Source: an uncultured delta proteobacterium
Lineage (GTDB): Bacteria; Chloroflexota; Dehalococcoidia; Dehalococcoidales; BS750m-G39
Reading direction: 5' to 3'
NCBI GenBank assembly: GCA_963739245.1
Contig: CAVTZP010000007.1
Coordinates: 187,723-251,722 of the forward strand
Length of the DNA: 64,000 nt
The notes beneath the pieces were generated by a model. It saw nothing but the letters and a program-made list of their open reading frames with translations. It ran no database searches and was not told the DNA's origin. Positions 9,390 through 54,575 of the stretch are shown here, in pieces (position 1 is the first letter of the stretch; every line of letters starts with the position of its first letter). The translations under genes were made by a program, and so were the position numbers.

Positions 9390-9398
9390 GTTTTTATG

Positions 9399-9483
9399 AA
9401 CCCCATCCCCTGTATCCCCTTCCCCTTAACAAGGGGAAGGGGAGGTTTGTTTTAAGAGGGGCTACCGCCCCTCTTTGACTGCC
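9399..9483 (+). repeat. bipartite palindromic repeat, copy R2 (A-B orientation)
   Basis: AACCCCATCCCCTGTATCCCCTTCCCCTTAACAAGGGGAAGGGGAGGTTTGTTTTAAGAGGGGCTACCGCCCCTCTTTGACTGCC. Lies between two convergent small membrane genes. Confidence 0.85.
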
Positions 9484-9975: not shown

Positions 9976-10044
9976 TGGATAACCCTCCTTTTTTGCCCAA
10001 GTTTACAATAATAAATTAAGGCACTTCAATAGGAATAGAATAGA

Positions 10045-10126
10045 GGTGTCTAAGAGGGGCGAAAGCCCCTCTTCTTTTATTCCTCCCCCTCTCCTTCAAA
10101 GGAGAGGGGGATACAGGGGGTGAGGT
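10045..10126 (-). repeat. bipartite palindromic repeat, copy R3 (B'-A' orientation)
   Basis: GGTGTCTAAGAGGGGCGAAAGCCCCTCTTCTTTTATTCCTCCCCCTCTCCTTCAAAGGAGAGGGGGATACAGGGGGTGAGGT. Ends 4 nt from the trpS stop. Confidence 0.9.
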
Positions 10127-10130
10127 CAAC

Positions 10131-11105
10131 CTATAAAAGCCCCATCTTCTGCTTGACTTCTTTAAGTGTTTCCCTGGCAATCACGCTGGCGCGCTGGGCG
10201 CCGTCAGCCAGGACCTCCTTTATATACTCAGGTTTAGCGGCTAAGGCAGAGCGCCGCTGGCGCAGGGGGGCGAGGGCGGAGTTAATCTTCTCGGCGAGAA
10301 GCGTCTTGCACTCAACACAGCCAATCTTGGCCGAGCGGCACTGGATAGCAATGTCTGCCTGTTGCTCCGGGTTAAAATACCCGTGCAGGGTGTAAATATT
10401 GCATACCTCGGGGTGACCGGGGTCATTGCGGTACTGGCGGGCGGGGTCGGTAACCGCCGTCATCACCTTCTTTATTGTCTCCTCAGGCGAAAGGGCGATT
10501 TCAACATCATTGCCCAGTTGCTTGCTCATCTTCTCCTTGCCATCCAGCCCGAGCACCATTGGAAATGAGGTAAGCTTGGCTTGAGGCTCGGGGAAGGTAT
10601 CGCCGAAGAGGTTATTGAAGCGCCGGGCAATCTCCCGGGCCAGCTCCAGATGGGGAAGCTGGTCTTCGCCAACCGGCACCACCTCAGCCTTATAAAGCAC
10701 GATATCGGCGGTCATCAGCACCGGATAGCCCACCAGCCCGTAGTTCACATTCTGAGGCTGGAGCTTTACCTTCTCCTTGAAGGTAGGCACGCGCAGCAAC
10801 CAGCCCAGGGGGGTAACCATACTGAGCAGGGTATGTAGCTCCATTACCTCAGGGACATGGGACTGAACAAAGATGATGCTTTTCTTGGGGTCAAGCCCAG
10901 CCGCCAGCCAGTCGAGGGTCATCTCACGGATATTGCTCTGCAGGCTAGAGGTATCCTCCATTGTGGTCAGGGCATGGATATCAACAATGCAATAGACGCA
11001 ATCATACTCATCCTGCAGGCTGACATAGTTTTGTATTGCCCCGAGGTAATTCCCCAGGTGCTGCCGGCCGGTGGGGCGAGCCCCAGAAAAAACACGCTTC
11101 TTCAT
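10131..11105 (-). CDS. trpS: tryptophan--tRNA ligase
   Basis: 324 aa. HIGH-type motif PTGRQHLGNY and the KMSKS motif KMSKQ. Confidence 0.95.
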   Translation of the reverse strand: MKKRVFSGARPTGRQHLGNYLGAIQNYVSLQDEYDCVYCIVDIHALTTMEDTSSLQSNIREMTLDWLAAGLDPKKSIIFVQSHVPEVMELHTLLSMVTPLGWLLRVPTFKEKVKLQPQNVNYGLVGYPVLMTADIVLYKAEVVPVGEDQLPHLELAREIARRFNNLFGDTFPEPQAKLTSFPMVLGLDGKEKMSKQLGNDVEIALSPEETIKKVMTAVTDPARQYRNDPGHPEVCNIYTLHGYFNPEQQADIAIQCRSAKIGCVECKTLLAEKINSALAPLRQRRSALAAKPEYIKEVLADGAQRASVIARETLKEVKQKMGLL

Positions 11106-14516: not shown

Positions 14517-14598
14517 AAACCTTACCCCCTTTAAGCACCAAGGCTTTTGTGGGCGGGTGGGTGGGAAGAAAAAGTATTGTTAAACACCTCTTCTCTCT

Positions 14599-14680
14599 AC
14601 CTCACCCCCTTAATCCCCCTCTCCTTCAAAGGAGAGGGGGAAGAGATTTTTTAAGAGAGGCTACGCCTCTCTTTGACTCC
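14599..14680 (+). repeat. bipartite palindromic repeat, copy R4 (A-B orientation)
   Basis: ACCTCACCCCCTTAATCCCCCTCTCCTTCAAAGGAGAGGGGGAAGAGATTTTTTAAGAGAGGCTACGCCTCTCTTTGACTCC. Confidence 0.9.
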
Positions 14681-14762
14681 TTATTAAAAACGAACTCGGC
14701 TCCCCACGTGGGGGAAAATCCGAACTTTTGCGGAGGTTTGTCTTTTCTAGACTGCTCAGAAT

Positions 14763-15524
14763 TCATGGTCTTATATCAAAAGAACGGATACCACTACTAT
14801 CTATGGTCAATGTAGTTATCTCACCGCCAATGGATGGCAAAAGAGTGCTCATACCATAAATCTGACTAATAATTCTGATCTGAAATCGAATATACTCAGC
14901 CCTGCCTTCTAAAGATGGTCGCGGAATGTTTATGTTACGCTGACGAAGGGTCGAGTTTAAAAGGCTCTCAAAATCTTCCCACCATGCAGCGTAAAAAGTG
15001 TAATCTCCATTCCTGACAATAAAGTAAGGGTTGTTTGGGTTATAACCACCCTGTGTAATGGCTCCGCCTAAATCGTAGTTAGCATTAAAAATATGTGTGT
15101 TGATATTTTGAAAGAACTGACTAGGGCCATTATGGATATGCCAGAAATCTGGCGCTAAGCGTCCGTTTTTAAGAACGAAGCCAGCTAGGTGAAATCCAGC
15201 TTCGGCTTGTCCTGACTGGGTTGGCGGTATAATTCTGTTTAGTTCGTCTTGAAGCAGTGTGGCAAACGCCTGTAAAGTTTGGCTCTGGCCTTGACACCTA
15301 GTAATGAACTCACTTAGCCATATATCGGTCTCAACGTTGCCTATTTGCCCGTATCCCCAACAAGAGGCACCAGCTTGAAGATAAGGAATTGGGAAAAGTT
15401 TCTGAACGCCCATCAGTACTCGGTTGCCAATTTGACCATTAGGTAATGGAGTCCGGCAAGTAACCGCGCTATCCGCCCCCATAACTATTCCGTATGACGA
15501 AATCTCTGTAAGTACTAAGGTCAT
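14763..15524 (-). CDS. orphan protein, candidate Thr1 N-terminal-nucleophile hydrolase (proteasome-beta/HslV-like)
   Basis: 253 aa. After Met removal the N-terminus TLVLTEISSYGIVMGADSAVT aligns position for position with HslV [21 protein letters not shown] (Thr1, Asp17, Thr21). A GVQKLFPI Lys follows, and SIGGEITTLTIDSSG near the C-terminus resembles the GSGG region. Fold assignment is unverified. Confidence 0.4.
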   Translation of the reverse strand: MTLVLTEISSYGIVMGADSAVTCRTPLPNGQIGNRVLMGVQKLFPIPYLQAGASCWGYGQIGNVETDIWLSEFITRCQGQSQTLQAFATLLQDELNRIIPPTQSGQAEAGFHLAGFVLKNGRLAPDFWHIHNGPSQFFQNINTHIFNANYDLGGAITQGGYNPNNPYFIVRNGDYTFYAAWWEDFESLLNSTLRQRNINIPRPSLEGRAEYIRFQIRIISQIYGMSTLLPSIGGEITTLTIDSSGIRSFDIRP

Positions 15525-15662
15525 CAGCTACCTCCAAAACTTAGAAATGACGAGTTCGGCTCATTTTGTATCTGCCCAGCTTAGAAAAGGATTCATCCCT
15601 AGCTCCACTCCGCTGCGCCGTGTTGCCAGACTCGGGCTAGCTCCTTAGCCAAGAGGCGGTGT

Positions 15663-18075
15663 TCAGGCTTCTCTAAAACTGGGGTCTTGTTCAAAGAGCC
15701 TTATTGCCTCGTCTCGTGCCAGCTCCAGCAGAGCCACATCAGAGAGCTTAGCCATGCGGAGGTCAGGAAGCCCGCTCTGCCGGGTGCCAAAGAACTCCCC
15801 CGGACCCCGCAGCCTCAGGTCCTCCTCAGCCAGTTGAAAGCCATCATAAATCTTCCCAATTATATCCAAGCGCTCCCTACCTACCTCGGAAGGGTTCTCC
15901 GCTAACAGCATGCAGTAGCTCTGCTCCTGCCCCCGCCCTACCCGGCCACGGAACTGGTGCAGTTGCGATAAGCCGAAACGGTCGGCGCTCTCCACCAGCA
16001 TCACCGTGGCATTGGGCACATCTATGCCCACCTCCACCACCGGGGTTGATACTAATATATTCAGTTCGCCGGAGCGAAAGCGGTGCATCGCCTCATCCTT
16101 CTCCGCCACCGACATCCGCCCGTGAATCAAGCCCAGCCTGAGGTCAGGAAAGACCTCCCGAGACAGGCGCTCATATTCCGCCACCGCCGCCTTAGCCTCA
16201 ATCGCCTCCGATTCCTCAATCAAGGGACAGATAATAAACGCCTGATGACCTTCAGCCACCTGACGGCGCAAAAAGTCATAGGCGCTATCCCGCTGCGATG
16301 GCTTGAGCCACTTGGTCTTCACCACCTGCCTCCCCGGAGGAAGTTCATCGATGACCGATAGGTCAAGGTCGCCATAGAGGGTCAAGGCCAGCGTTCGGGG
16401 GATAGGCGTTGCCGTCATTACCAGAACATGGGGGTTAAACCCCTTCTGCCTGAGCGCGGAACGCTGGGTAACCCCAAACCGGTGCTGCTCATCAACCACC
16501 GCCAAGCCCAATCGCTGGAACTCAACCTCCTTCTGAAAAAGGGCGTGAGTCCCGATAACAATATCTATATCTCCACTGGCGATAAGCTGCTGGATTTCCT
16601 GCTTCCGCGCCTGGTTTATGCCACCAATAAGTAGCGCCATAGTAAGCGGACGAGATAGAAGCCCGGAGTAACTACTCAGGTTATCTTCCCCCGCCACCTG
16701 CTCACCGGCTCTAGACAGGAGCTGGCAGAGGTTAGCAAAGTGCTGCTCAGCCAGAATCTCCGTCGGCGCCATGAATGCTCCCTGATAGCCACTGGCCGCC
16801 CCAACCAGCAGGGCGGCAGTAGCCACCACGGTCTTGCCACTGCCCACCTCCCCCTGCAACAATCGGGACATCGGTCTTGGCTTCTCCAGGTCAGCCAGTA
16901 TCTCACCGAGCACCCGGTGCTGAGCCGCCGTCAGCTTGAAGGGCAAAGAGCTTAAAAAGCTTATCCAGCACCGGTGTCTTGACCTCAAACGGGTTGCCCG
17001 GCTGGCTCTCCTGCCAATCGCGCTTTCTCGCCAGCACCCCCAATTGAAGAAGAAAAAGCTCGTCAAACGCCAGCCCGACCCTTGCCCGGTCCTTAGCGGC
17101 TTCATTCTCGGGAAAGTGAGCCTGGGCTATCGCCTGGGGCAGCTCAAGCAGGTTACAGCGTTGCCTCAGCTCGGTGGGCAAAAAGTCCTCTACCTGCCCT
17201 GCCCACTGGTCGACAACCTCTTTCATCAGTTTCCTCACCTGGCGGGGGTGCAACCCCTGGGTAAGGGGATAGAGAGGAACCAGGCGCCCGGTGTGAATCA
17301 GCTCCTTATCCTCCAATAGCTCCCACTCTGGAGATTCAAACACATGCCGCCCGCCAAATAAGCCCACCCGGCCGCTGAGAACCACCCGGGTATTAGTTGG
17401 TAGCTTCTTTGCCAGGTAAGGATTATTAAACCATACCACCCTGACATTGCCGGTCTCATCGCCGACAATAGCCTCGGTGCTGCGCCGGCCACCGGGCATA
17501 ATCACCTGAGCCTGCCACACGTTAGCAATAATCGTCTGCTCCTCTCCCTCGGTAAGCTGGGAGATATACTTCCTCTGGCTATAGTCAAGATGGCGGTGGG
17601 GGAAGAAATAGAGCAGGTCACGAATCGTTTCCACACCCAAACGTTTGAACTTAGCCGCCAGACTGGTGCTAACCCCCTTAAGAGTAGTAATGGGAGACTC
17701 AATAGACCCGCTGGCTACCCTACGCCCCTTTACCAAAGACTGCCTGCTGTCTACCGGAGGCGAGGGCACTGCGCCTTCTTCTGGCACCTTGACCTCACCC
17801 TTTTCAGTTTCAACTTTCTCCAGTTCAGACAGAAAAGCAAATATCTTATTTACCCACTCCTTGCGCTGCTCCCTGGTCAAAGAGGCATAGTTAGAATTAA
17901 TCAACCCAAGCCGATGAAACTGGCGCAAAAGCGGGGGGCTGGTTATTGACTCTACGGCTTGAGCGGTCCAGCGGTGAAGGAATCTATCCAAACCACCGAT
18001 TACCGCTGAATCCAGATAACCCTTCTCAACCTCAAGCCGGAGAATCTTCTGCAGAGGCTCAACATTTATTGGCAA
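15663..18075 (-). pseudogene. recG: ATP-dependent DNA helicase RecG, split by a 1-nt insertion in a homopolymer
   Basis: Track ORFs 16903-18075 (wedge/N-terminal part) and 15663-17105 (helicase core: GEVGSGKTVVA, DEQHRFG, QLHQFRGRVGRG) overlap in different frames. Deleting one base of the A5 run at 16954-16958 gives ...VLDKLLSSLPFKLTAAQHRVL... Confidence 0.9.
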
Positions 18076-18108: not shown

Positions 18109-18951
18109 TCAATCCCTGTCGCCTAATACAGATACCGCTAAAACGTGAGGGCCAACATGCACCCCCACTGCCGGACTCACCTTCGTCCGGTAGATACGCT
18201 CTTTGGGAAATTTAGTGTTGATACGCTCAGCCAACATCTCAGCCTCATTGGGAGTGGTGGCATCCTCTATCGCCATTTCTTCAATGCGGGAATAACCTAT
18301 AGCAAAGTTATATAGGTGTTCTATTGACTTGGCTCGAGAGCGCTCCCTGGCAACCGGATAAGTCTCGCCATCTTTTATACAGAGGATAGGATTTATCTTA
18401 AGCACTGACCCGAGAAATGCCTGCGCCTTACCAATGCGCCCACCCCTCTGAAGATATTCCAAGGTATCAAAAGCGATGCGGATATCAGCTCGAGGTATAT
18501 TCTTCTGCGTCAAAGCCGCCACCTCATCGAAACTAGCTCCGGCCTGAGCCGCCTTAGCCGCAGCCATAACTATAAGTCCCTCGGCCATAAGGGCCCATTG
18601 CGAATCAATCACCTCTATCCGGCATTTCCGCTTCATCAGTTCTACAGCTTGCAACGCTGTCTTATAGATAGCACTCAACTTGTGGGAAATAGTAATGACC
18701 AGGATTTCGTCCGTCTCTTTAGCCAGCTTATCATACGCCTCGGCAAAGATTGTCGGTGCCGGCACTGCCGTAGTTGGCAGGATTTTGCTACTGACTAACC
18801 TCTCGTAGAACTGCTCAGTAGTCAGGTCAATACCATCGCGATAAGTTTTAGCGCCAAAGCAAACATACGCCGGAACTACGGTAATACCTAATTCTTCAAC
18901 CGATTTGACAGGAAGGCAAGCCGAGCTATCAGTAACAATCTTAACTGCCAT
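18109..18951 (-). CDS. DegV-family fatty-acid-binding protein (FakB-type), paralog 1
   Basis: 280 aa. IVTDS start and the DegV pattern ...TSxPSP/AP...LEYLxRGGRIG. Confidence 0.85.
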   Translation of the reverse strand: MAVKIVTDSSACLPVKSVEELGITVVPAYVCFGAKTYRDGIDLTTEQFYERLVSSKILPTTAVPAPTIFAEAYDKLAKETDEILVITISHKLSAIYKTALQAVELMKRKCRIEVIDSQWALMAEGLIVMAAAKAAQAGASFDEVAALTQKNIPRADIRIAFDTLEYLQRGGRIGKAQAFLGSVLKINPILCIKDGETYPVARERSRAKSIEHLYNFAIGYSRIEEMAIEDATTPNEAEMLAERINTKFPKERIYRTKVSPAVGVHVGPHVLAVSVLGDRD

Positions 18952-18977
18952 TTAAAAGCCTTTGCCCCTTATTACTG

Positions 18978-19820
18978 CTACCCCTTGTCCCCCAATATAG
19001 CGACCAGCAGGAGACCGGGGCCAGTATGAGTCCCGATTGCTGGGGTCATCTTTGAGCGATAGATTCGTTCCTTTGGAAACTTAGTGCTAAGCCGCTCAAC
19101 CAGTGCCTCAGCGTCATCAGGACAGGCGGTATCCTCCACCGCCATCTCCTCTATGCGGGAAAAGCTAGTAGCAAAGTTATATAAATGCTCCATCGCCTTC
19201 GCCCGAGAGCGTGTCCTGCCTACCGGCTCAACCAGGCCGTCTTTCAGGGTGATGATAGGGTTTATCCTCAGTATTGACCCCAGAAAAGCCTGTGCCCGGC
19301 CAATCCGCCCACCCCTCCTGAGGTACTCCAGGGTATCAAAAGCAGCCCGAAAATCCACACGAGGAATAGTCTTTCTAATTAGCTCTATCACCTTACCAAG
19401 ACTAGCTCCGGCCTGAGCCGCTCTAGCCGCAGCCATAACTATAAACCCCTGCGCCATAGTCGCCCACCGTGAATCAATCACTTCCACCCGGCATTTCCGT
19501 TTCATCAGTGCGACGCTTTGTAACGCCACCTCATAGGTACCACTGAGCCGGGAAGAAACAATAATAGCCAGAATCTCATCTGTCTCCTCAGCCAGCTTAT
19601 CATAGGCCTCGGCAAAGGTTGCTGGTGATGGTACTGAAGTAACCGGAAAGATCTTGCTGCGGGTGAGCATGTTGTAGAACTCGCTGGCAGTCAGGTCAAT
19701 GCCATCACGGTAGAGCCTTTCGCCAAAGCGGACAAGTAACGGAATCACCGTAATCCCCAGCTCTTTAACCACCTGAGACGGCAAATCAGCGATGCTATCG
19801 GTAACAATCCTAACTGTCAT
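18978..19820 (-). CDS. DegV-family fatty-acid-binding protein (FakB-type), paralog 2
   Basis: 280 aa. Colinear with paralogs 1 and 3 and roughly two-thirds identical to them by eye. Confidence 0.85.
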   Translation of the reverse strand: MTVRIVTDSIADLPSQVVKELGITVIPLLVRFGERLYRDGIDLTASEFYNMLTRSKIFPVTSVPSPATFAEAYDKLAEETDEILAIIVSSRLSGTYEVALQSVALMKRKCRVEVIDSRWATMAQGFIVMAAARAAQAGASLGKVIELIRKTIPRVDFRAAFDTLEYLRRGGRIGRAQAFLGSILRINPIITLKDGLVEPVGRTRSRAKAMEHLYNFATSFSRIEEMAVEDTACPDDAEALVERLSTKFPKERIYRSKMTPAIGTHTGPGLLLVAILGDKG

Positions 19821-20659
19821 CGCTTGTCCCCTAGCACCGATACTGCCAGAACATGGGGACCGACGTGCGCTCCCACCACCGGGCTGACCTTTGCCCGGTA
19901 GATAAGCACTTTGGGAAATTTAGAACCAAGCCGCTTGGCTAGCTCATCTGCCTCGTCCGGGGTAGTGGCATCCTCTACCGCCATCCCCTCTATGCGGGAA
20001 AAGCTAGTAGCAAAGTTATATAAGTAGTCTATCGCCCTAGTCCGGGAGTGCTCCCGAGCGAAAGGATAGACCTCACCATCCCTTATACCAAGGACAGGGT
20101 GCACCTTAAGCACTGAACTTAGAAAAGCCTGGGCTTTGCCAATGCGCCCGCCACGACTCAGGTATTCCAGGGTATCAAAAACCATACGAACATCAGCCCG
20201 GGGGATATTGCGGCGAGTTAGACTAACCACTTCATCAAGGCCAGCTCCAGCCTGAGCTGCCTTAGCCGCCGCCATAACTATCAGTCCCTCGGTCATAGTC
20301 GCCCACCCTGAATCAATCACCTCCACCCGGCATTTCCGCTTCATCAGCCCTTTAGCCTCCAGGGCGGTATTATAGCCAGCACCGAGCTTATGGGAAAAGG
20401 TAATGACCAGGATTTCGTCTGTCTCCTTAGCCAGCTTATCATAGGTATTAACAAACACGCTCAGGGGTGGCACTGTGGTCGTGGGAAAGATTTTGCTGGC
20501 CACCAGCCTCTCATAGAACTGGTCAGTAGTCAGGTCAATGCCGTCGCGGAAGGTCTCACTACCAAAATGGACATTCAGCGGCACTATGGTAATTCTTAGT
20601 TTTTTAGCTACCTCAGAAGGTATGTCAGCTAGACTATCGCTGACAATATTTACCGACAT
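19817..20659 (-). CDS. DegV-family fatty-acid-binding protein (FakB-type), paralog 3
   Basis: 280 aa. Overlaps paralog 2 by 4 nt. Same DegV motifs. Confidence 0.85.
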   Translation of the reverse strand: MSVNIVSDSLADIPSEVAKKLRITIVPLNVHFGSETFRDGIDLTTDQFYERLVASKIFPTTTVPPLSVFVNTYDKLAKETDEILVITFSHKLGAGYNTALEAKGLMKRKCRVEVIDSGWATMTEGLIVMAAAKAAQAGAGLDEVVSLTRRNIPRADVRMVFDTLEYLSRGGRIGKAQAFLSSVLKVHPVLGIRDGEVYPFAREHSRTRAIDYLYNFATSFSRIEGMAVEDATTPDEADELAKRLGSKFPKVLIYRAKVSPVVGAHVGPHVLAVSVLGDKR

Positions 20660-20671
20660 AATAACCCCCGT

Positions 20672-22327
20672 TTACTCAATAGAGACAATATAATTATAAT
20701 GAGGCTGACCACCTTGAATTACCTCAACCTGAAGCTGGGGGTATTTTTCATGGATAGCCGCGCCAGCCTGCTCGGCGTCAGCAGATGTAGTATCAGCCCC
20801 ATAGTAGATGGTAATGACCTCAGCCCCATCTGGATTCATCCTGGCCAGCACCTCACTAAGAACATCCTCCGGTTTATCACTCACGGCTACCAGGTCTCCA
20901 TCCAAAAAGCCAATTGCCTGCTTCTTTCTAATATCAAACCCACCAAGGCGGGTTGAGCGTATCGCCCGGGTAACCTCGATAGACCTTACCGCTGATATCG
21001 CCTCCTCCATATTCTGAACGTTTGTTTCCAGGTCAGCCTCATAATCAAAGGCCAAAAGTGCCGCTACTCCCTGGGGAATTGTTTTGGCTGGCACCACTCT
21101 AATCGTCTTGGCGGTCAATGACTGAACTTGATTGGCGGTAAGCACTATATTCTTATTGTTAGGCAAAATAATAACCCTTTCTGAAGCCACCATCTCCACC
21201 GCCTGGAGCAAATCCTTGGTGCTGGGATTCATTGTCTGCCCACCGGGGACGATAGCCGTTGCCCCCAGGCTGCTGAAAACATTATTCAACCCCTCCCCGG
21301 CCACTACTGCCACAATGGCAATATCAACCGCTGGCATCCTTTCTTTCTGCATCTCCAAGAAGTCCCGGTATTGCTCATCCATATTGCGTATACTTATCTC
21401 GTGCAAGGTGCCCTGGGAGATAACATGGTGCACAATCTCACCGGGGTCTAAGGTATGAATATGAACCCTGACTGCCGAATCGTCACCAATGACGATAACC
21501 GATTGCCCCCTCTTTTCCAGCTTCTCCCTGAGCTTATCTGGGTCAAGCCCCTGCCCCCTAATCACAAAATTGGTGCAATAACCATAGGGTACCTCGGGGA
21601 CACCAACCATCTGGGGACCCTTAGCCGCGAGTGGCACACTGCTGGCAATCAACCACGGCTTGCGCAGTTTCAACTGCTCCGCCTCGCCCTTAAGGCAGTG
21701 AAGGGCACCCTCAAGGAGGGTGTATAGACCCTGCCCACCCGCATCCACCACCCCCGCCTCCCTCAGTACCGGCAGAAGGCTGGGGGTATTAGCCACCGAC
21801 TCCCGGGCAGCATCAACCGTAGCCTCCAGGACCGAGACCACGTCATCACCAGCATTACCGGCATGTGCCTGGGCAGCCTGGGCCGCCTCTCTAATTACGG
21901 TAAGAATAGTCCCCTCTACAGGATTGCTCAACCCTTTATAAGCCACGGTTGACGCCAGGAGCAGGGCATTAGCCAGGTCACTGCCAGTAATCGTTCCCTT
22001 ACCTTCCAAGCCCTGAGCTAAACCATGCCAGATCTGCGACAGGATTACCCCGCTGTTACCCCGAGCCCCCATCAGCGCCCCTTTAGCCATAGCTTGAGCT
22101 ACCTCACAAGCACCACAGTTGTTAGAGATCCGGGCGGCTTCCTCCAGAGAGGAACGCATGGTAAGCAGCATGTTAGTCCCGGTATCGCCGTCAGGCACGG
22201 GAAAGACATTCAGGGCATCAACATCAGCAGCGCACTTCTCCAGCCAGCCAGTAGCGGCGGTAAACATTTCCCTTAAATCTTGCCCGGAGATAGAATTGGT
22301 TTGTCCTTTCTTCTCTATCCTTGCCAT
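20672..22327 (-). CDS. fakA: DAK2-domain protein YloV / fatty acid kinase subunit FakA
   Basis: 551 aa. N-terminal Dak2 motif PDGDTGTNM, plus the middle and C-terminal domains typical of YloV/FakA. Directly upstream of the three degV genes. Confidence 0.85.
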   Translation of the reverse strand: MARIEKKGQTNSISGQDLREMFTAATGWLEKCAADVDALNVFPVPDGDTGTNMLLTMRSSLEEAARISNNCGACEVAQAMAKGALMGARGNSGVILSQIWHGLAQGLEGKGTITGSDLANALLLASTVAYKGLSNPVEGTILTVIREAAQAAQAHAGNAGDDVVSVLEATVDAARESVANTPSLLPVLREAGVVDAGGQGLYTLLEGALHCLKGEAEQLKLRKPWLIASSVPLAAKGPQMVGVPEVPYGYCTNFVIRGQGLDPDKLREKLEKRGQSVIVIGDDSAVRVHIHTLDPGEIVHHVISQGTLHEISIRNMDEQYRDFLEMQKERMPAVDIAIVAVVAGEGLNNVFSSLGATAIVPGGQTMNPSTKDLLQAVEMVASERVIILPNNKNIVLTANQVQSLTAKTIRVVPAKTIPQGVAALLAFDYEADLETNVQNMEEAISAVRSIEVTRAIRSTRLGGFDIRKKQAIGFLDGDLVAVSDKPEDVLSEVLARMNPDGAEVITIYYGADTTSADAEQAGAAIHEKYPQLQVEVIQGGQPHYNYIVSIE

Positions 22328-25829: not shown

Positions 25830-25846
25830 GTTGAATTCTCCTTCTA

Positions 25847-25932
25847 ACCTCTCCCCCTGTATCCCCCTCTCCTTTCTAAGGAGAGGGGGAAAGTAGTTTT
25901 TTGAGAGAGGCTCCGCCTCTCTCTGACTCTCC
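25847..25932 (+). repeat. bipartite palindromic repeat, copy R5 (A-B), intercistronic between argD and argG
   Basis: ACCTCTCCCCCTGTATCCCCCTCTCCTTTCTAAGGAGAGGGGGAAAGTAGTTTTTTGAGAGAGGCTCCGCCTCTCTCTGACTCTCC. Ends 1 nt from the argD stop. Confidence 0.9.
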
Positions 25933-34648: not shown

Positions 34649-34729
34649 ACCTCACCCCCTGACCCCCTCTCCTTCAAAGGAGAGGGGGAAGAAAATTAAA
34701 AAGAGGGACTAAAGCCCCTCTTAGACACC
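34649..34729 (+). repeat. bipartite palindromic repeat, copy R8 (A-B orientation)
   Basis: ACCTCACCCCCTGACCCCCTCTCCTTCAAAGGAGAGGGGGAAGAAAATTAAAAAGAGGGACTAAAGCCCCTCTTAGACACC. Lies 29 nt from the stop of the nuclease-like gene. Confidence 0.9.
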
Positions 34730-54447: not shown

Positions 54448-54454
54448 TTTATTA

Positions 54455-54575
54455 ATCTCACCCCCTGTATCCCCCTCTCCTTGAGAAGGAGAGGGGGGAA
54501 GGTATTGTTTAGAGGGACTTCGTCCCTCTTGGACTCCCTTGAATTTATTTGGGCTTCGCCCCTCTTGGACTCTCC
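54455..54575 (+). repeat. repeat family copy R10: A module plus B module plus an extra half B module
   Basis: ATCTCACCCCCTGTATCCCCCTCTCCTTGAGAAGGAGAGGGGGG ... TTTAGAGGGACTTCGTCCCTCTTGGACTCC ... GGGCTTCGCCCCTCTTGGACTCTCC. It fills the gap between the small ORF and proA. Confidence 0.85.

What the first reader, a model, noticed from the sequence alone, without database searches (positions are those of the whole stretch)
14763..15524. Orphan proteasome-beta/HslV-like Thr1 hydrolase candidate without an ATPase partner
The 253-aa protein starts MTLVLTEISSYGIVMGADSAVT. With Met removed, Thr1, Asp17 and Thr21 align position for position with the HslV N-terminus [21 protein letters not shown]. A Lys in GVQKLFPI follows after a short insertion, where Lys33 would be. 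SIGGEITTLTIDSSG near the C-terminus resembles the GSGG loop and final strands of Ntn proteasome-type subunits. The middle of the protein is not recognisably proteasome-like. No hslU, Anbu-associated or Pup/ARC genes are adjacent. The gene is compositionally atypical and sits between recG and a repeat copy. Just downstream lies a perfect 14-nt palindrome, TCCCCACGTGGGGA (14701-14714). It could be a divergent stand-alone member of the proteasome-homolog superfamily.
Basis: inference. Interest (0 to 1): 0.6.

Follow-up and report, generated by a model that had tools for sequence, protein, structure and literature searches.

The report
Orphan proteasome-like Thr1 hydrolase gene
This gene encodes a stand-alone relative of the proteasome's catalytic subunit, from an unannotated family known almost only from metagenomes, which has spread between distant bacteria and archaea and has no ATPase or other fixed partner; what it cleaves is unknown.

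Summary
The 253-aa ORF (14763-15524, minus strand) is a real gene under purifying selection (dN/dS about 0.13-0.15). It matches no Pfam, NCBIfam, PADLOC or PDB sequence profile. Its AlphaFold2 model is confident (pLDDT 93.4) and matches only 20S proteasome subunits in the PDB. Its best match overall is a phage-encoded proteasome homolog. In 224 family members, Thr/Ser directly after Met1, Asp18, Lys42 and Gly57 are about 99% conserved. These map to Thr1, Asp/Glu17, Lys33 and Gly47 of the proteasome beta subunit. There is no propeptide. The second shell differs (Asn for Ser129, Ile for Ser169), and a roughly 34-residue insert and a conserved His trio are family-specific. Across 92 non-redundant loci no neighbouring gene recurs. 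The window's own neighbours are all housekeeping genes. The gene is typically GC-poorer than its flanks, and the family is scattered across many phyla, which points to horizontal transfer. It is most likely an ATP-independent Thr1 peptidase or amidase of unknown substrate. Corrections: the palindrome is perfect over 12 nt, not 14, and forms a terminator-like hairpin. The 'SIGG' motif corresponds to the Ser169-Gly-Gly loop, not to HslV's GSGG. Membership in a subfamily of Fuchs et al. 2021 could not be tested.

The parts
14763..15524 (-). 253-aa ORF encoding a stand-alone proteasome-beta-like Ntn (Thr1) hydrolase
   Evidence: ORF list and sequence. There are 142 homologs in the indexed search and 423 clusters in the exhaustive search. 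dN/dS is 0.13-0.15. The AF2 model has pLDDT 93.4. Foldseek hits are all proteasome subunits.
15531..15535 (-). Shine-Dalgarno GGAGG, 6 nt upstream of the ATG
   Evidence: Read directly from the sequence. It supports the Met1-Thr2 start.
15519..15521 (-). Codon for Thr2, the predicted N-terminal nucleophile once Met1 is removed (equivalent to proteasome Thr1)
   Evidence: T/S in 213 of 214 aligned sequences. Thr directly follows the initiator Met in 200 of 224. Aligned to Thr1.
15471..15473 (-). Codon for Asp18 (equivalent to Asp/Glu17)
   Evidence: D in 223 of 224. Aligned to Glu17 of T. acidophilum beta.
15399..15401 (-). Codon for Lys42 (equivalent to Lys33), within K-L-F, which aligns to K33-L34-F35
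   Evidence: K in 222 of 224. Mapping. It sits 9 positions later than in the proteasome because of an insertion between strands S3 and S4.
15354..15356 (-). Codon for Gly57 (equivalent to the oxyanion-hole Gly47)
   Evidence: G in 222 of 224. Mapping.
15027..15128 (-). Family-specific insert (residues about 133-166) between core strands S7 and S8. It follows the conserved H129-x-H131 and contains the conserved D151.
   Evidence: Secondary-structure order in the model. Gap against T. acidophilum beta in hhalign. Conservation.
14686..14722 (-). Terminator-like hairpin (12 bp with one bulge; the tip is the 12-nt palindrome CCCCACGTGGGG at 14702-14713) followed directly by U5
   Evidence: RNA fold of 14590-14765 (-), z = -3.8. 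Palindrome check. The simple terminator scan did not flag it.
14597..14663 (.). Copy of a dispersed REP-like double-hairpin intergenic repeat (not part of the gene). It explains why short-read contigs break about 110-140 nt after the gene.
   Evidence: Repeat families D4/D5 with 6 and 4 copies in the window. Contig ends in L030-L033.

Best explanation
The gene encodes a catalytically competent, stand-alone member of the proteasome-like (T1-type) N-terminal-nucleophile hydrolase superfamily. Proposed mechanism:
- The protein is made without a propeptide.
- Methionine aminopeptidase removes Met1. This is inferred: Thr is a permitted residue after Met, as in E. coli HslV.
- That exposes Thr2, whose hydroxyl is the nucleophile and whose free alpha-amine takes part in proton transfer.
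- Lys42 and Asp18 play the roles of Lys33 and Asp17, and the backbone NH of Gly57 forms the oxyanion hole.
- The enzyme hydrolyses peptide or amide bonds without a dedicated ATPase or unfoldase.

The substrate is most likely short or unfolded peptides, or one specific protein. The family has its own second-shell residues (Asn172 in place of Ser129, Ile232 in place of Ser169), an insert of about 34 residues between S7 and S8, and a conserved His112/His129/His131 trio. These probably shape specificity or assembly.

The gene is a horizontally mobile single-gene unit. It is GC-poor relative to its host DNA, scattered across many bacterial and archaeal phyla, and has its own ribosome-binding site and terminator-like hairpin.

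Shown: the fold, the conservation and positions of the catalytic residues, the lack of a partner, purifying selection, and the HGT signature. Inferred: Met removal, actual hydrolytic activity, substrate class and oligomeric state.
For: - Fold: AF2 model with pLDDT 93.4 and pTM 0.91, with the strand/helix order of a proteasome beta subunit. All 50 listed Foldseek PDB hits are 20S proteasome subunits (probability 1.00). The BFVD top hit is a phage proteasome-type protein (E 1.1e-8, TM 0.65/0.74).
- Catalytic residues: T/S2 in 213 of 214, D18 in 223/224, K42 in 222/224, G57 in 222/224. Thr follows the initiator Met in 200/224.
- Residue mapping: a colinear HMM-HMM alignment to verified T. acidophilum and A. 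fulgidus beta subunits maps these to Thr1, Glu17, Lys33 and Gly47.
- Real gene: dN/dS 0.13-0.15; SD sequence and a forced start codon.
- No partner: the window's +-10 kb is all housekeeping. No neighbour family occurs in more than 4 of 92 loci. No paralog lies nearby in 23 loci.
- HGT: the gene has lower GC than its flanks in 45 of 62 loci, P = 1e-6. The taxonomic spread is very patchy.
- Literature: Fuchs, Alva & Lupas 2021 (PMC8665760) describe many such orphan proteasome homologs without propeptides, genomic context or AAA+ partners.
Against: - Sequence-level links to the proteasome family are weak. No PF00227 hit appears even at E <= 10. The PDB profile search returned nothing. hhalign gives P = 0.002 against archaeal beta subunits and 0.32 against HslV.
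- The fold assignment therefore rests on a predicted structure. I could not inspect its coordinates, so the active-site geometry is unverified.
- The second-shell residues Ser129 and Ser169 are replaced, and no Asp166 equivalent was aligned. That could mean a different chemistry or reduced activity.
- Related orphans have often shown no detectable peptidase activity in vitro (my recollection for Anbu and BPH; not checked here).
- The oligomeric state is unknown.
Confidence: 0.8

Rival explanations
1. The protein is a conflict or anti-phage defence effector protease. It lives in variable 'defence-island' regions and is switched on by changing sensor partners. In some lineages that partner is a large ABC/SMC-type (AAA_21) ATPase.
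For: - Tightly linked neighbours include a type I restriction R subunit (L005), an HNH endonuclease with HicAB and a methyltransferase (L001), SIR2_2 proteins (L006, L019), and type II and IV restriction enzymes.
- A homologous AAA_21/SMC ATPase sits directly upstream of the family gene in two different subclades: L021 (4-nt overlap, fused to GGACT) and L062.
- PADLOC matched 64 families among 149 immediate neighbours, against 34 among 123 distant control genes.
- The gene has a mobile, GC-poor signature.
Against: - No partner recurs in more than 4 of 92 loci.
- Many neighbours are plain housekeeping genes (Hsp70, isocitrate dehydrogenase, Mfd, aminotransferase).
- The window's own locus is entirely housekeeping.
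- The excess of PADLOC families is small and was not tested statistically. Many of those hits are generic helicase cross-matches.
- The protein itself has no PADLOC hit.
- The family is absent from phage, plasmid and viral-contig collections.
- No literature link was found.
Confidence: 0.12
2. The protein is not a general peptidase. It is either a sequence-specific transpeptidase/ligase like connectase or an amidohydrolase acting on a small molecule, working as a monomer or dimer rather than as a ring.
For: - There is no unfoldase partner.
- The family-specific inserts (9 residues between S3 and S4, about 34 between S7 and S8, and a longer H3-H4 linker) lie at or near sites that Fuchs et al. 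argue can block ring or double-ring assembly or cover the active site.
- The second shell is altered.
- The invariant His trio could build a specific binding or metal site.
Against: - Connectase lacks helices H1 and H2, whereas this model has both.
- No conserved neighbouring substrate or pathway gene was found.
- No data on oligomeric state were obtainable here.
Confidence: 0.15
3. The protein is one subunit of a heteromeric proteasome-like complex that needs a second, more canonical proteasome homolog encoded elsewhere in the genome.
For: In metagenome contig L042, two paralogs (52% identical) flank a gene that passes Pfam PF00227 (29.3 bits against a cutoff of 22.4). That gene is weakly closest to Anbu (5lox, E 0.056). 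A P-loop ATPase follows.
Against: The arrangement is unique among about 110 loci: phmmer with the L042 middle gene finds no other copy. No paralog or proteasome-like neighbour occurs in the other loci. Nothing of the kind lies within 10 kb in the window.
Confidence: 0.05
4. The ORF is a spurious ORF or an inactive pseudo-enzyme that keeps only the fold.
For: It has no annotation anywhere, its composition is atypical, and the canonical second-shell residues are replaced.
Against: There are 423 homolog clusters of conserved length. dN/dS is 0.13-0.15. The four catalytic positions are about 99% conserved across sequences that are otherwise only 25-45% identical.
Confidence: 0.02

Closest known systems
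20S proteasome beta subunit (MEROPS T1; Pfam PF00227), e.g. T. acidophilum PsmB and yeast chain K (labelled Pre2/beta5 for 1g0u_K)
   Same: Same alpha-beta-beta-alpha sandwich with the same order of strands and helices. Thr1, Asp/Glu17, Lys33 and Gly47 equivalents are present and about 99% conserved. The Thr21 equivalent (T22) and Tyr135 equivalent (Y178) are also conserved.
   Different: - No Pfam PF00227 match.
- No propeptide.
- No alpha-subunit gene and no AAA+ partner nearby.
- Ser129 is replaced by Asn, Ser169 by Ile, and no Asp166 equivalent was aligned.
- A 9-residue insertion lies before Lys33 and an insert of about 34 residues lies between S7 and S8.
- There is no C-terminal H5 helix.
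HslV (ClpQ), the peptidase of the HslUV protease
   Same: It starts Met-Thr with no propeptide, so the nucleophile is exposed by Met removal. Thr1, Asp17 and Thr21 have identical spacing. It is bacterial.
   Different: hhalign gives P = 0.32, which is not significant. This protein is about 75 residues longer, with inserts. HslV's G-S-G-G loop is R-N-G-D here. No hslU is adjacent in the window or in any of 92 loci.
Anbu and BPH (bacterial orphan proteasome homologs)
   Same: They are proteasome-like Thr1 proteins without a dedicated AAA+ unfoldase and with unknown physiological substrates (PMC8665760).
The 22 uncharacterised proteasome-homolog subfamilies of Fuchs, Alva & Lupas 2021 (the PMI-1 to PMI-6 'multiple insertions' group, PHD, WPH, PHI and others)
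   Same: The general description fits: highly divergent sequences, conserved Thr1/Asp17/Lys33/Gly47, no propeptide, insertions at several sites including S3/S4 and H3/H4, no genomic context, no AAA+ partner, and a mixed bacterial and archaeal distribution shaped by HGT. Some of their subfamilies, such as PMI-4, have phage members, and the best structural match here is a phage protein.
   Different: None of the accessions seen here match their representatives. Only 2 of the top 120 homolog clusters list NCBI nr as a source, and one of those carries an MCX-series accession that I believe post-dates the survey. Their survey was nr-based and every subfamily had at least 17 nr90 sequences. This family was therefore probably invisible to it. 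The text I could read does not list an S7/S8 insert among their insertion sites.
Connectase (archaeal monomeric proteasome homolog, a protein ligase)
   Same: It is a stand-alone proteasome homolog with no ATPase and an insertion between S3 and S4 near the active site.
   Different: Connectase lacks helices H1 and H2 and has a two-helix lid. This model has H1 and H2, and only a 9-residue S3/S4 insertion.

Membership tests
Proteasome-like Ntn hydrolase superfamily (T1 type) | Alpha-beta-beta-alpha sandwich with proteasome strand/helix topology | tested here: met
   AF2 model with pLDDT 93.4. All 50 listed Foldseek PDB hits are 20S subunits, probability 1.00. The BFVD top hit is a phage proteasome-type protein, E 1.1e-8. 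This rests on a predicted structure, not a solved one.
Proteasome-like Ntn hydrolase superfamily (T1 type) | Nucleophilic Thr (or Ser) at the mature N-terminus | tested here: met
   T/S at position 2 in 213 of 214 aligned sequences, directly after the initiator Met in 200 of 224. The start codon is forced in the window. Actual Met removal cannot be tested here.
Proteasome-like Ntn hydrolase superfamily (T1 type) | Asp/Glu17, Lys33 and the oxyanion-hole Gly47 | tested here: met
   D18 in 223/224, K42 in 222/224 and G57 in 222/224. They align to Glu17, Lys33 and Gly47 of T. acidophilum beta.
Proteasome-like Ntn hydrolase superfamily (T1 type) | Active-site geometry (Thr1 O-gamma within H-bond distance of Lys33 N-zeta; the N-terminus free in a pocket) | not testable with these tools
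   The tools do not expose the model's coordinates.
Canonical 20S beta subunit (Pfam PF00227) | Match to the PF00227 profile | tested here: not met
   No hit for the query at E <= 10, nor for any of the 45 family members at E <= 5.
Canonical 20S beta subunit (Pfam PF00227) | Second-shell residues Ser129, Asp166 and Ser169 | tested here: not met
   N172 aligns to Ser129 and I232 to Ser169. No residue aligned to Asp166.
Canonical 20S beta subunit (Pfam PF00227) | An N-terminal propeptide removed autocatalytically, and a partner alpha subunit | tested here: not met
   No propeptide in 200 of 224 members. No proteasome-like neighbour in the window or in 91 of 92 loci.
HslV | Significant sequence similarity to HslV and a compact subunit of about 175 aa | tested here: not met
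   hhalign of the family profile against verified E. coli HslV gives P = 0.32. The protein is 253 aa with inserts.
HslV | An adjacent hslU (AAA+ ATPase) gene | tested here: not met
   Pfam scan of the window's neighbours. No recurrent neighbour across 92 loci.
Anbu | A conserved operon context and a long C-terminal H5 helix | tested here: not met
   The neighbours are housekeeping genes. The model ends in two beta strands (E236-242, E245-252) with no C-terminal helix.
Connectase | Absence of H1/H2 and a two-helix S3/S4 lid | tested here: not met
   The model has H66-76 and H84-98. The feature definition comes from PMC8665760.
Fuchs et al. 2021 subfamilies (PMI-1 to PMI-6, PHD, WPH, PHI and others) | Clustering or HHpred match with the published subfamily alignments | not testable with these tools
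   Their sequences and alignments are not held here. The accessions seen do not match. Indirect evidence (the family is almost absent from nr) argues against prior description.
Known anti-phage defence systems (PADLOC) | Match to a defence-protein model | tested here: not met
   No PADLOC family matched at E <= 10.

The most novel reading that the evidence does not exclude
This is an undescribed, metagenome-only family of mobile stand-alone Thr1 proteases that acts in biological conflict. It would be deployed as a single-gene cassette, and in some lineages it would be coupled to large ABC/SMC-type (AAA_21) ATPases (L021, L062, L042) instead of the AAA+ unfoldases that partner every characterised proteasome-type protease. 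That would be a new kind of ATPase-proteasome-homolog pairing, and possibly a new quaternary architecture built around the S7/S8 insert and the conserved His trio.
Probability: 0.1. Interest if true: 0.75.

Novelty: new variant of a known kind. Interest (0 to 1): 0.42.

Why it matters
Proteasome-type Thr1 proteases are best understood as the cores of ATP-driven degradation machines. The growing set of partner-less homologs (Anbu, BPH, connectase and the 22 families of Fuchs et al. 2021) shows that the fold does other jobs, and connectase proved to be a useful protein ligase.

This family adds a well-defined case:
- It is sizeable (about 420 clusters at 50% identity) and strongly conserved.
- It is missing from Pfam, NCBIfam and, almost entirely, from nr.
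- Its catalytic core is intact, but its second shell, its insert and its His cluster are distinctive.
- It shows a clear horizontal-transfer signature.

It gives an annotation for hundreds of 'hypothetical proteins', a candidate for a new Pfam family in the Ntn clan, and a tractable 250-aa target for testing what ATPase-independent proteasome homologs do. The result is incremental rather than surprising, because specialists explicitly predicted that more such families exist.

Tried and rejected
- **Sequence-profile identification.** Pfam, NCBIfam, PADLOC, PHROGs and the PDB (single sequence and family profile) gave nothing significant. Weak hits to the adenovirus fibre knob and to NlpD were treated as chance.
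- **hhalign.** Against verified T. acidophilum/A. fulgidus beta subunits, HslV and the L042 PF00227-type protein, the results were P = 0.002, 0.32 and 0.014. These are useful for residue mapping but are not proof of homology on their own.
- **Conserved-partner search.** I used blastp clustering of neighbours in 23 and then 92 loci, an HMM search for nearby paralogs, and phmmer with candidate partners. No general partner emerged.
- **Defence-island hypothesis.** Pfam and PADLOC scans of 149 immediate neighbours against 123 distant controls gave only a mild, unquantified excess. It is kept as a minor rival.
- **Mobile-element carriers.** There were no hits in IMG/VR viral contigs, INPHARED phages or PLSDB plasmids.
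- **Fused domains.** Longer family members have no Pfam domain in their extensions. Most N-terminal 'extensions' are miscalled starts.
- **Assignment to a Fuchs et al. subfamily.** Their supplement holds no sequences and the accessions do not match.
- **Source organism.** It was not identified. The exact look-up of a neighbouring protein failed, and the single genome-contig scan found no close relative (best 46% identity).
Full report
**Observation**

Its ATG is the first possible start codon in the open frame. A GGAGG Shine-Dalgarno sequence lies 6 nt upstream (15531-15535), so the product must begin Met-Thr. The gene is 43.4% GC against 53.0% for its flanks and 51.7% for the whole window.

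On the upstream side lies recG. On the downstream side, after a 246-nt spacer, lies a pyridine-nucleotide-disulfide oxidoreductase with a rhodanese domain. The spacer holds one copy of a dispersed REP-like double-hairpin repeat (14597-14663; six copies in the window).

Two details need correcting:
- The palindrome is perfect over only 12 nt (CCCCACGTGGGG, 14702-14713), because the + strand reads TCCCCACGTGGGGG. It forms the tip of a 12-bp hairpin (14691-14722) followed directly by U5. That is a plausible intrinsic terminator for this gene.
- The 'SIGG' motif is not the counterpart of HslV's GSGG loop (see 'Catalytic residues' below).

**Is it a real gene, and what family is it?**

No curated profile recognises the protein. 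Pfam, NCBIfam, PADLOC and PDB sequences gave nothing meaningful, nor did a family profile searched against the PDB.

The protein nevertheless has 142 homologs in the indexed search and 423 clusters at 50% identity in the exhaustive search. Nearly all are 245-280 aa long and align from residue 1 to residue 1. Every one that carries a name is called 'hypothetical protein'. dN/dS against two close homologs is 0.13 and 0.15, so the gene is functional and under purifying selection.

**Fold**

An AlphaFold2 model built from a 45-sequence alignment is confident (pLDDT 93.4, pTM 0.91). Its element order is that of a proteasome beta subunit: five N-terminal strands, two helices, a strand hairpin, one more strand, two helices and two C-terminal strands. 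An extra segment at about residues 133-166 is the only addition.

Foldseek against the PDB returned 344 matches. All 50 listed are 20S proteasome subunits from yeast, Mycobacterium tuberculosis, Plasmodium and a microsporidian (probability 1.00, best E 5.4e-6, TM up to 0.66 on the target). Against predicted viral structures the top hit is better still. It is a phage 'Proteasome beta type-2 subunit' (A0A8S5LJV3; E 1.1e-8, TM 0.65/0.74, 22% identity), followed by a Gordonia phage protein.

**Catalytic residues**

I aligned 224 full-length family members, many only 25-45% identical to the query:
- Position 2 is Thr (207) or Ser (6) in 213 of 214 aligned sequences.
- That residue directly follows the initiator Met in 200 of 224. 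Most apparent N-terminal extensions have an in-frame Met right before the Thr, so they are miscalled starts.
- Asp18 is present in 223/224, Lys42 in 222/224 and Gly57 in 222/224.

I then ran an HMM-HMM alignment of the family against T. acidophilum and A. fulgidus beta subunits. I had first verified my typed reference sequences against the PDB (100% to 3c91_H; 174 of 175 to E. coli HslV 1e94_A). The alignment is statistically weak (P about 0.002) but colinear over 180 columns. It gives this mapping:

| This protein | T. acidophilum beta |
|---|---|
| Thr2 | Thr1 |
| Asp18 | Glu17 (Asp17 in most other proteasome-type subunits, my recollection) |
| Lys42-Leu-Phe | Lys33-Leu34-Phe35 |
| Gly57 | Gly47 (oxyanion hole) |
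| Thr22 | Thr21 |
| Asn172-Gly173 | Ser129-Gly130 |
| Ile232-Gly233-Gly234 | Ser169-Gly170-Gly171 |

The catalytic triad and the oxyanion hole are thus intact, so the second refutation criterion is also not met. The canonical second shell is replaced, however, and no Asp166 equivalent was aligned.

Family-specific invariant features are His112, His129 and His131 on the S6/S7 hairpin, Asp151 in the insert, the R-N-G-D motif, and Trp56 and Trp69. His129 and His131 align to positions 112 and 114. In 20S rings, as I recall, those positions help form the neighbouring subunit's substrate channel. Whether that applies here is speculation. Similarity to HslV itself is not significant (P = 0.32).

**Context**

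In the window, the genes within about 10 kb are TrpRS, ArgRS, the oxidoreductase, RecG, three DegV paralogs, FakA, Rpe and ArgH. There is no AAA+ unfoldase and no Pup/ARC or Anbu-type operon gene.

I collected 26 loci from named genomes and 80 from metagenomes and de-replicated them to 92. No neighbouring protein family occurs in more than 4 of the 92, and those four are Mfd/RecG-type helicases. Immediate neighbours are a mix of housekeeping genes and some restriction, HNH, SIR2, AAA_21 and transposase genes. PADLOC matched 64 families among 149 immediate neighbours, against 34 among 123 distant control genes. That is a mild excess which I do not regard as established.

Two exceptions are worth noting:
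- A homologous large AAA_21/SMC-type ATPase lies directly upstream of the family gene in L021 (4-nt overlap, fused to a GGACT domain) and in L062.
- One contig, L042, carries two paralogs (52% identical) flanking a gene that passes Pfam PF00227 and is weakly Anbu-like, followed by a P-loop ATPase.

**Distribution**

Hosts include Zixibacteria, Deltaproteobacteria/Thermodesulfobacteriota, Omnitrophota, Planctomycetota/Phycisphaerae, Verrucomicrobiota, Bacteroidota, Terriglobia, Chloroflexi, Eisenbacteria, Bathyarchaeota, Methanoperedenaceae and Theionarchaea. Nearly all are environmental MAGs.

The gene has lower GC than its flanks in 45 of 62 loci (Wilcoxon P = 1e-6). In 40% of loci the drop exceeds 5 points, against 10% for size-matched control genes. 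Together with the patchy taxonomy, this indicates recurrent horizontal transfer. No copies were found in viral contigs, phage genomes or plasmids.

**Mechanism**

The best-supported reading is an ATP-independent Thr1 hydrolase. Met aminopeptidase exposes Thr2. Thr2, Lys42 and Asp18 form the catalytic triad, and Gly57 forms the oxyanion hole. The inserts, the Asn172/Ile232 second shell and the His trio tune specificity or assembly.

The fold, the residue identities and conservation, the lack of a partner, the selection and the mobility are shown. Met removal, activity, substrate and oligomeric state are inferred.

**Comparison with known systems, and novelty**

The protein works like a proteasome beta subunit or HslV active site. 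It fails the membership tests for canonical beta subunits (no PF00227 match, no propeptide, no alpha partner, altered second shell), for HslV (no similarity, no HslU), for Anbu (no operon, no H5 helix) and for connectase (H1 and H2 are present).

It fits the general picture of the 22 orphan proteasome-homolog subfamilies described by Fuchs, Alva & Lupas 2021 (PMC8665760). Those are divergent, lack propeptides, bear insertions, and have no genomic context and no AAA+ partner.

Indirect evidence suggests this family was not among them. Only 2 of the top 120 homolog clusters list nr as a source, and one of those has an accession series (MCX) that I believe post-dates the survey. More distant members are found only in Logan, JGI or ENA. 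Their survey was nr-based, and each subfamily had at least 17 nr90 sequences. No later paper characterising such orphans was found.

I therefore rate it a new variant (a probably undescribed family) of a known kind. The interest is moderate, because the authors of that survey explicitly expected more such families.

**Limits**

Noticed in passing
window 15663-18075 (-), near 16959 and 15680: recG is split into two overlapping ORFs (390 aa and 480 aa) in the window. In short-read assemblies of the same organism it is an intact 824-aa gene (L030, L031). The window differs by two 1-nt indels over 3580 nt at 99.44% identity, at least one of them next to a T run. These are likely assembly or sequencing errors rather than a true pseudogene. 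With the corrected frame, recG ends 75 nt before the ATG.
   Followed up: partly
window 9398-9464, 10085-10133, 14597-14663, 25845-25913, 34663-34711, 54453-54520: A dispersed REP/MITE-like intergenic element. It has a 13-bp G/C-rich hairpin (CCCCCTCTCCTT..AAGGAGAGGGGG) followed by a second small hairpin. Six copies lie in the 64 kb. A second hairpin-repeat family (GTCTAAGAGGGGCGAAAGCCCCTCTTC) has 3 copies, at 10039, 52219 and 60047.
   Followed up: partly
window 18109-22327 (-): Three tandem DegV paralogs (280 aa each, about 70-78% DNA identity) lie directly next to a FakA-like fatty-acid kinase subunit. This looks like an expanded fatty-acid-binding and kinase module.
   Followed up: no
L042:1599-6209: A metagenome contig carries two paralogs of the family (52% identical). 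They flank a 274-aa gene that starts MTLVV, has a canonical GSG loop and a C-terminal helical tail, passes Pfam PF00227 and is weakly Anbu-like (5lox, E 0.056). A 450-aa P-loop (AAA_21-like) ATPase follows. This is the only such three-gene proteasome-homolog cluster among about 110 loci.
   Followed up: partly
L021:7521-10840 and L062:6954-10798: A large SMC_N/AAA_21 ATPase lies directly upstream of the family gene in two different subclades (a Verrucomicrobia MAG and a metagenome contig). It is 827 aa in L021, where it is fused to a GGACT/AIG2 gamma-glutamyl-cyclotransferase domain, and 959 aa in L062. In L021 the two genes overlap by 4 nt. PADLOC gives two neighbour proteins Ppl- and AriA-like hits, which I take to be these two ATPases. 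This may be a two-gene conflict cassette.
   Followed up: partly
BFVD entries A0A8S5LJV3 (Siphoviridae sp. ct3o911) and A0A142KAQ6 (Gordonia phage Nymphadora); phrog_5990: The closest structural matches to the model are phage-encoded proteasome-like proteins (E 1e-8 and 1e-7), better than any PDB proteasome subunit. Five of ten family members also give weak N-terminal hits (residues 1-69 to profile positions 1-69; best E 0.004) to PHROG 5990, a 427-position family of unknown function. Even so, no family member was found on viral contigs, phages or plasmids.
   Followed up: partly
L069, L080, L096 and window 15663-18075: In four loci the gene immediately upstream of the family member is a RecG- or Mfd-type (TRCF) superfamily-2 DNA-repair helicase. 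With 4 of 92 loci this may be coincidence, or a preferred insertion site downstream of these genes.
   Followed up: no
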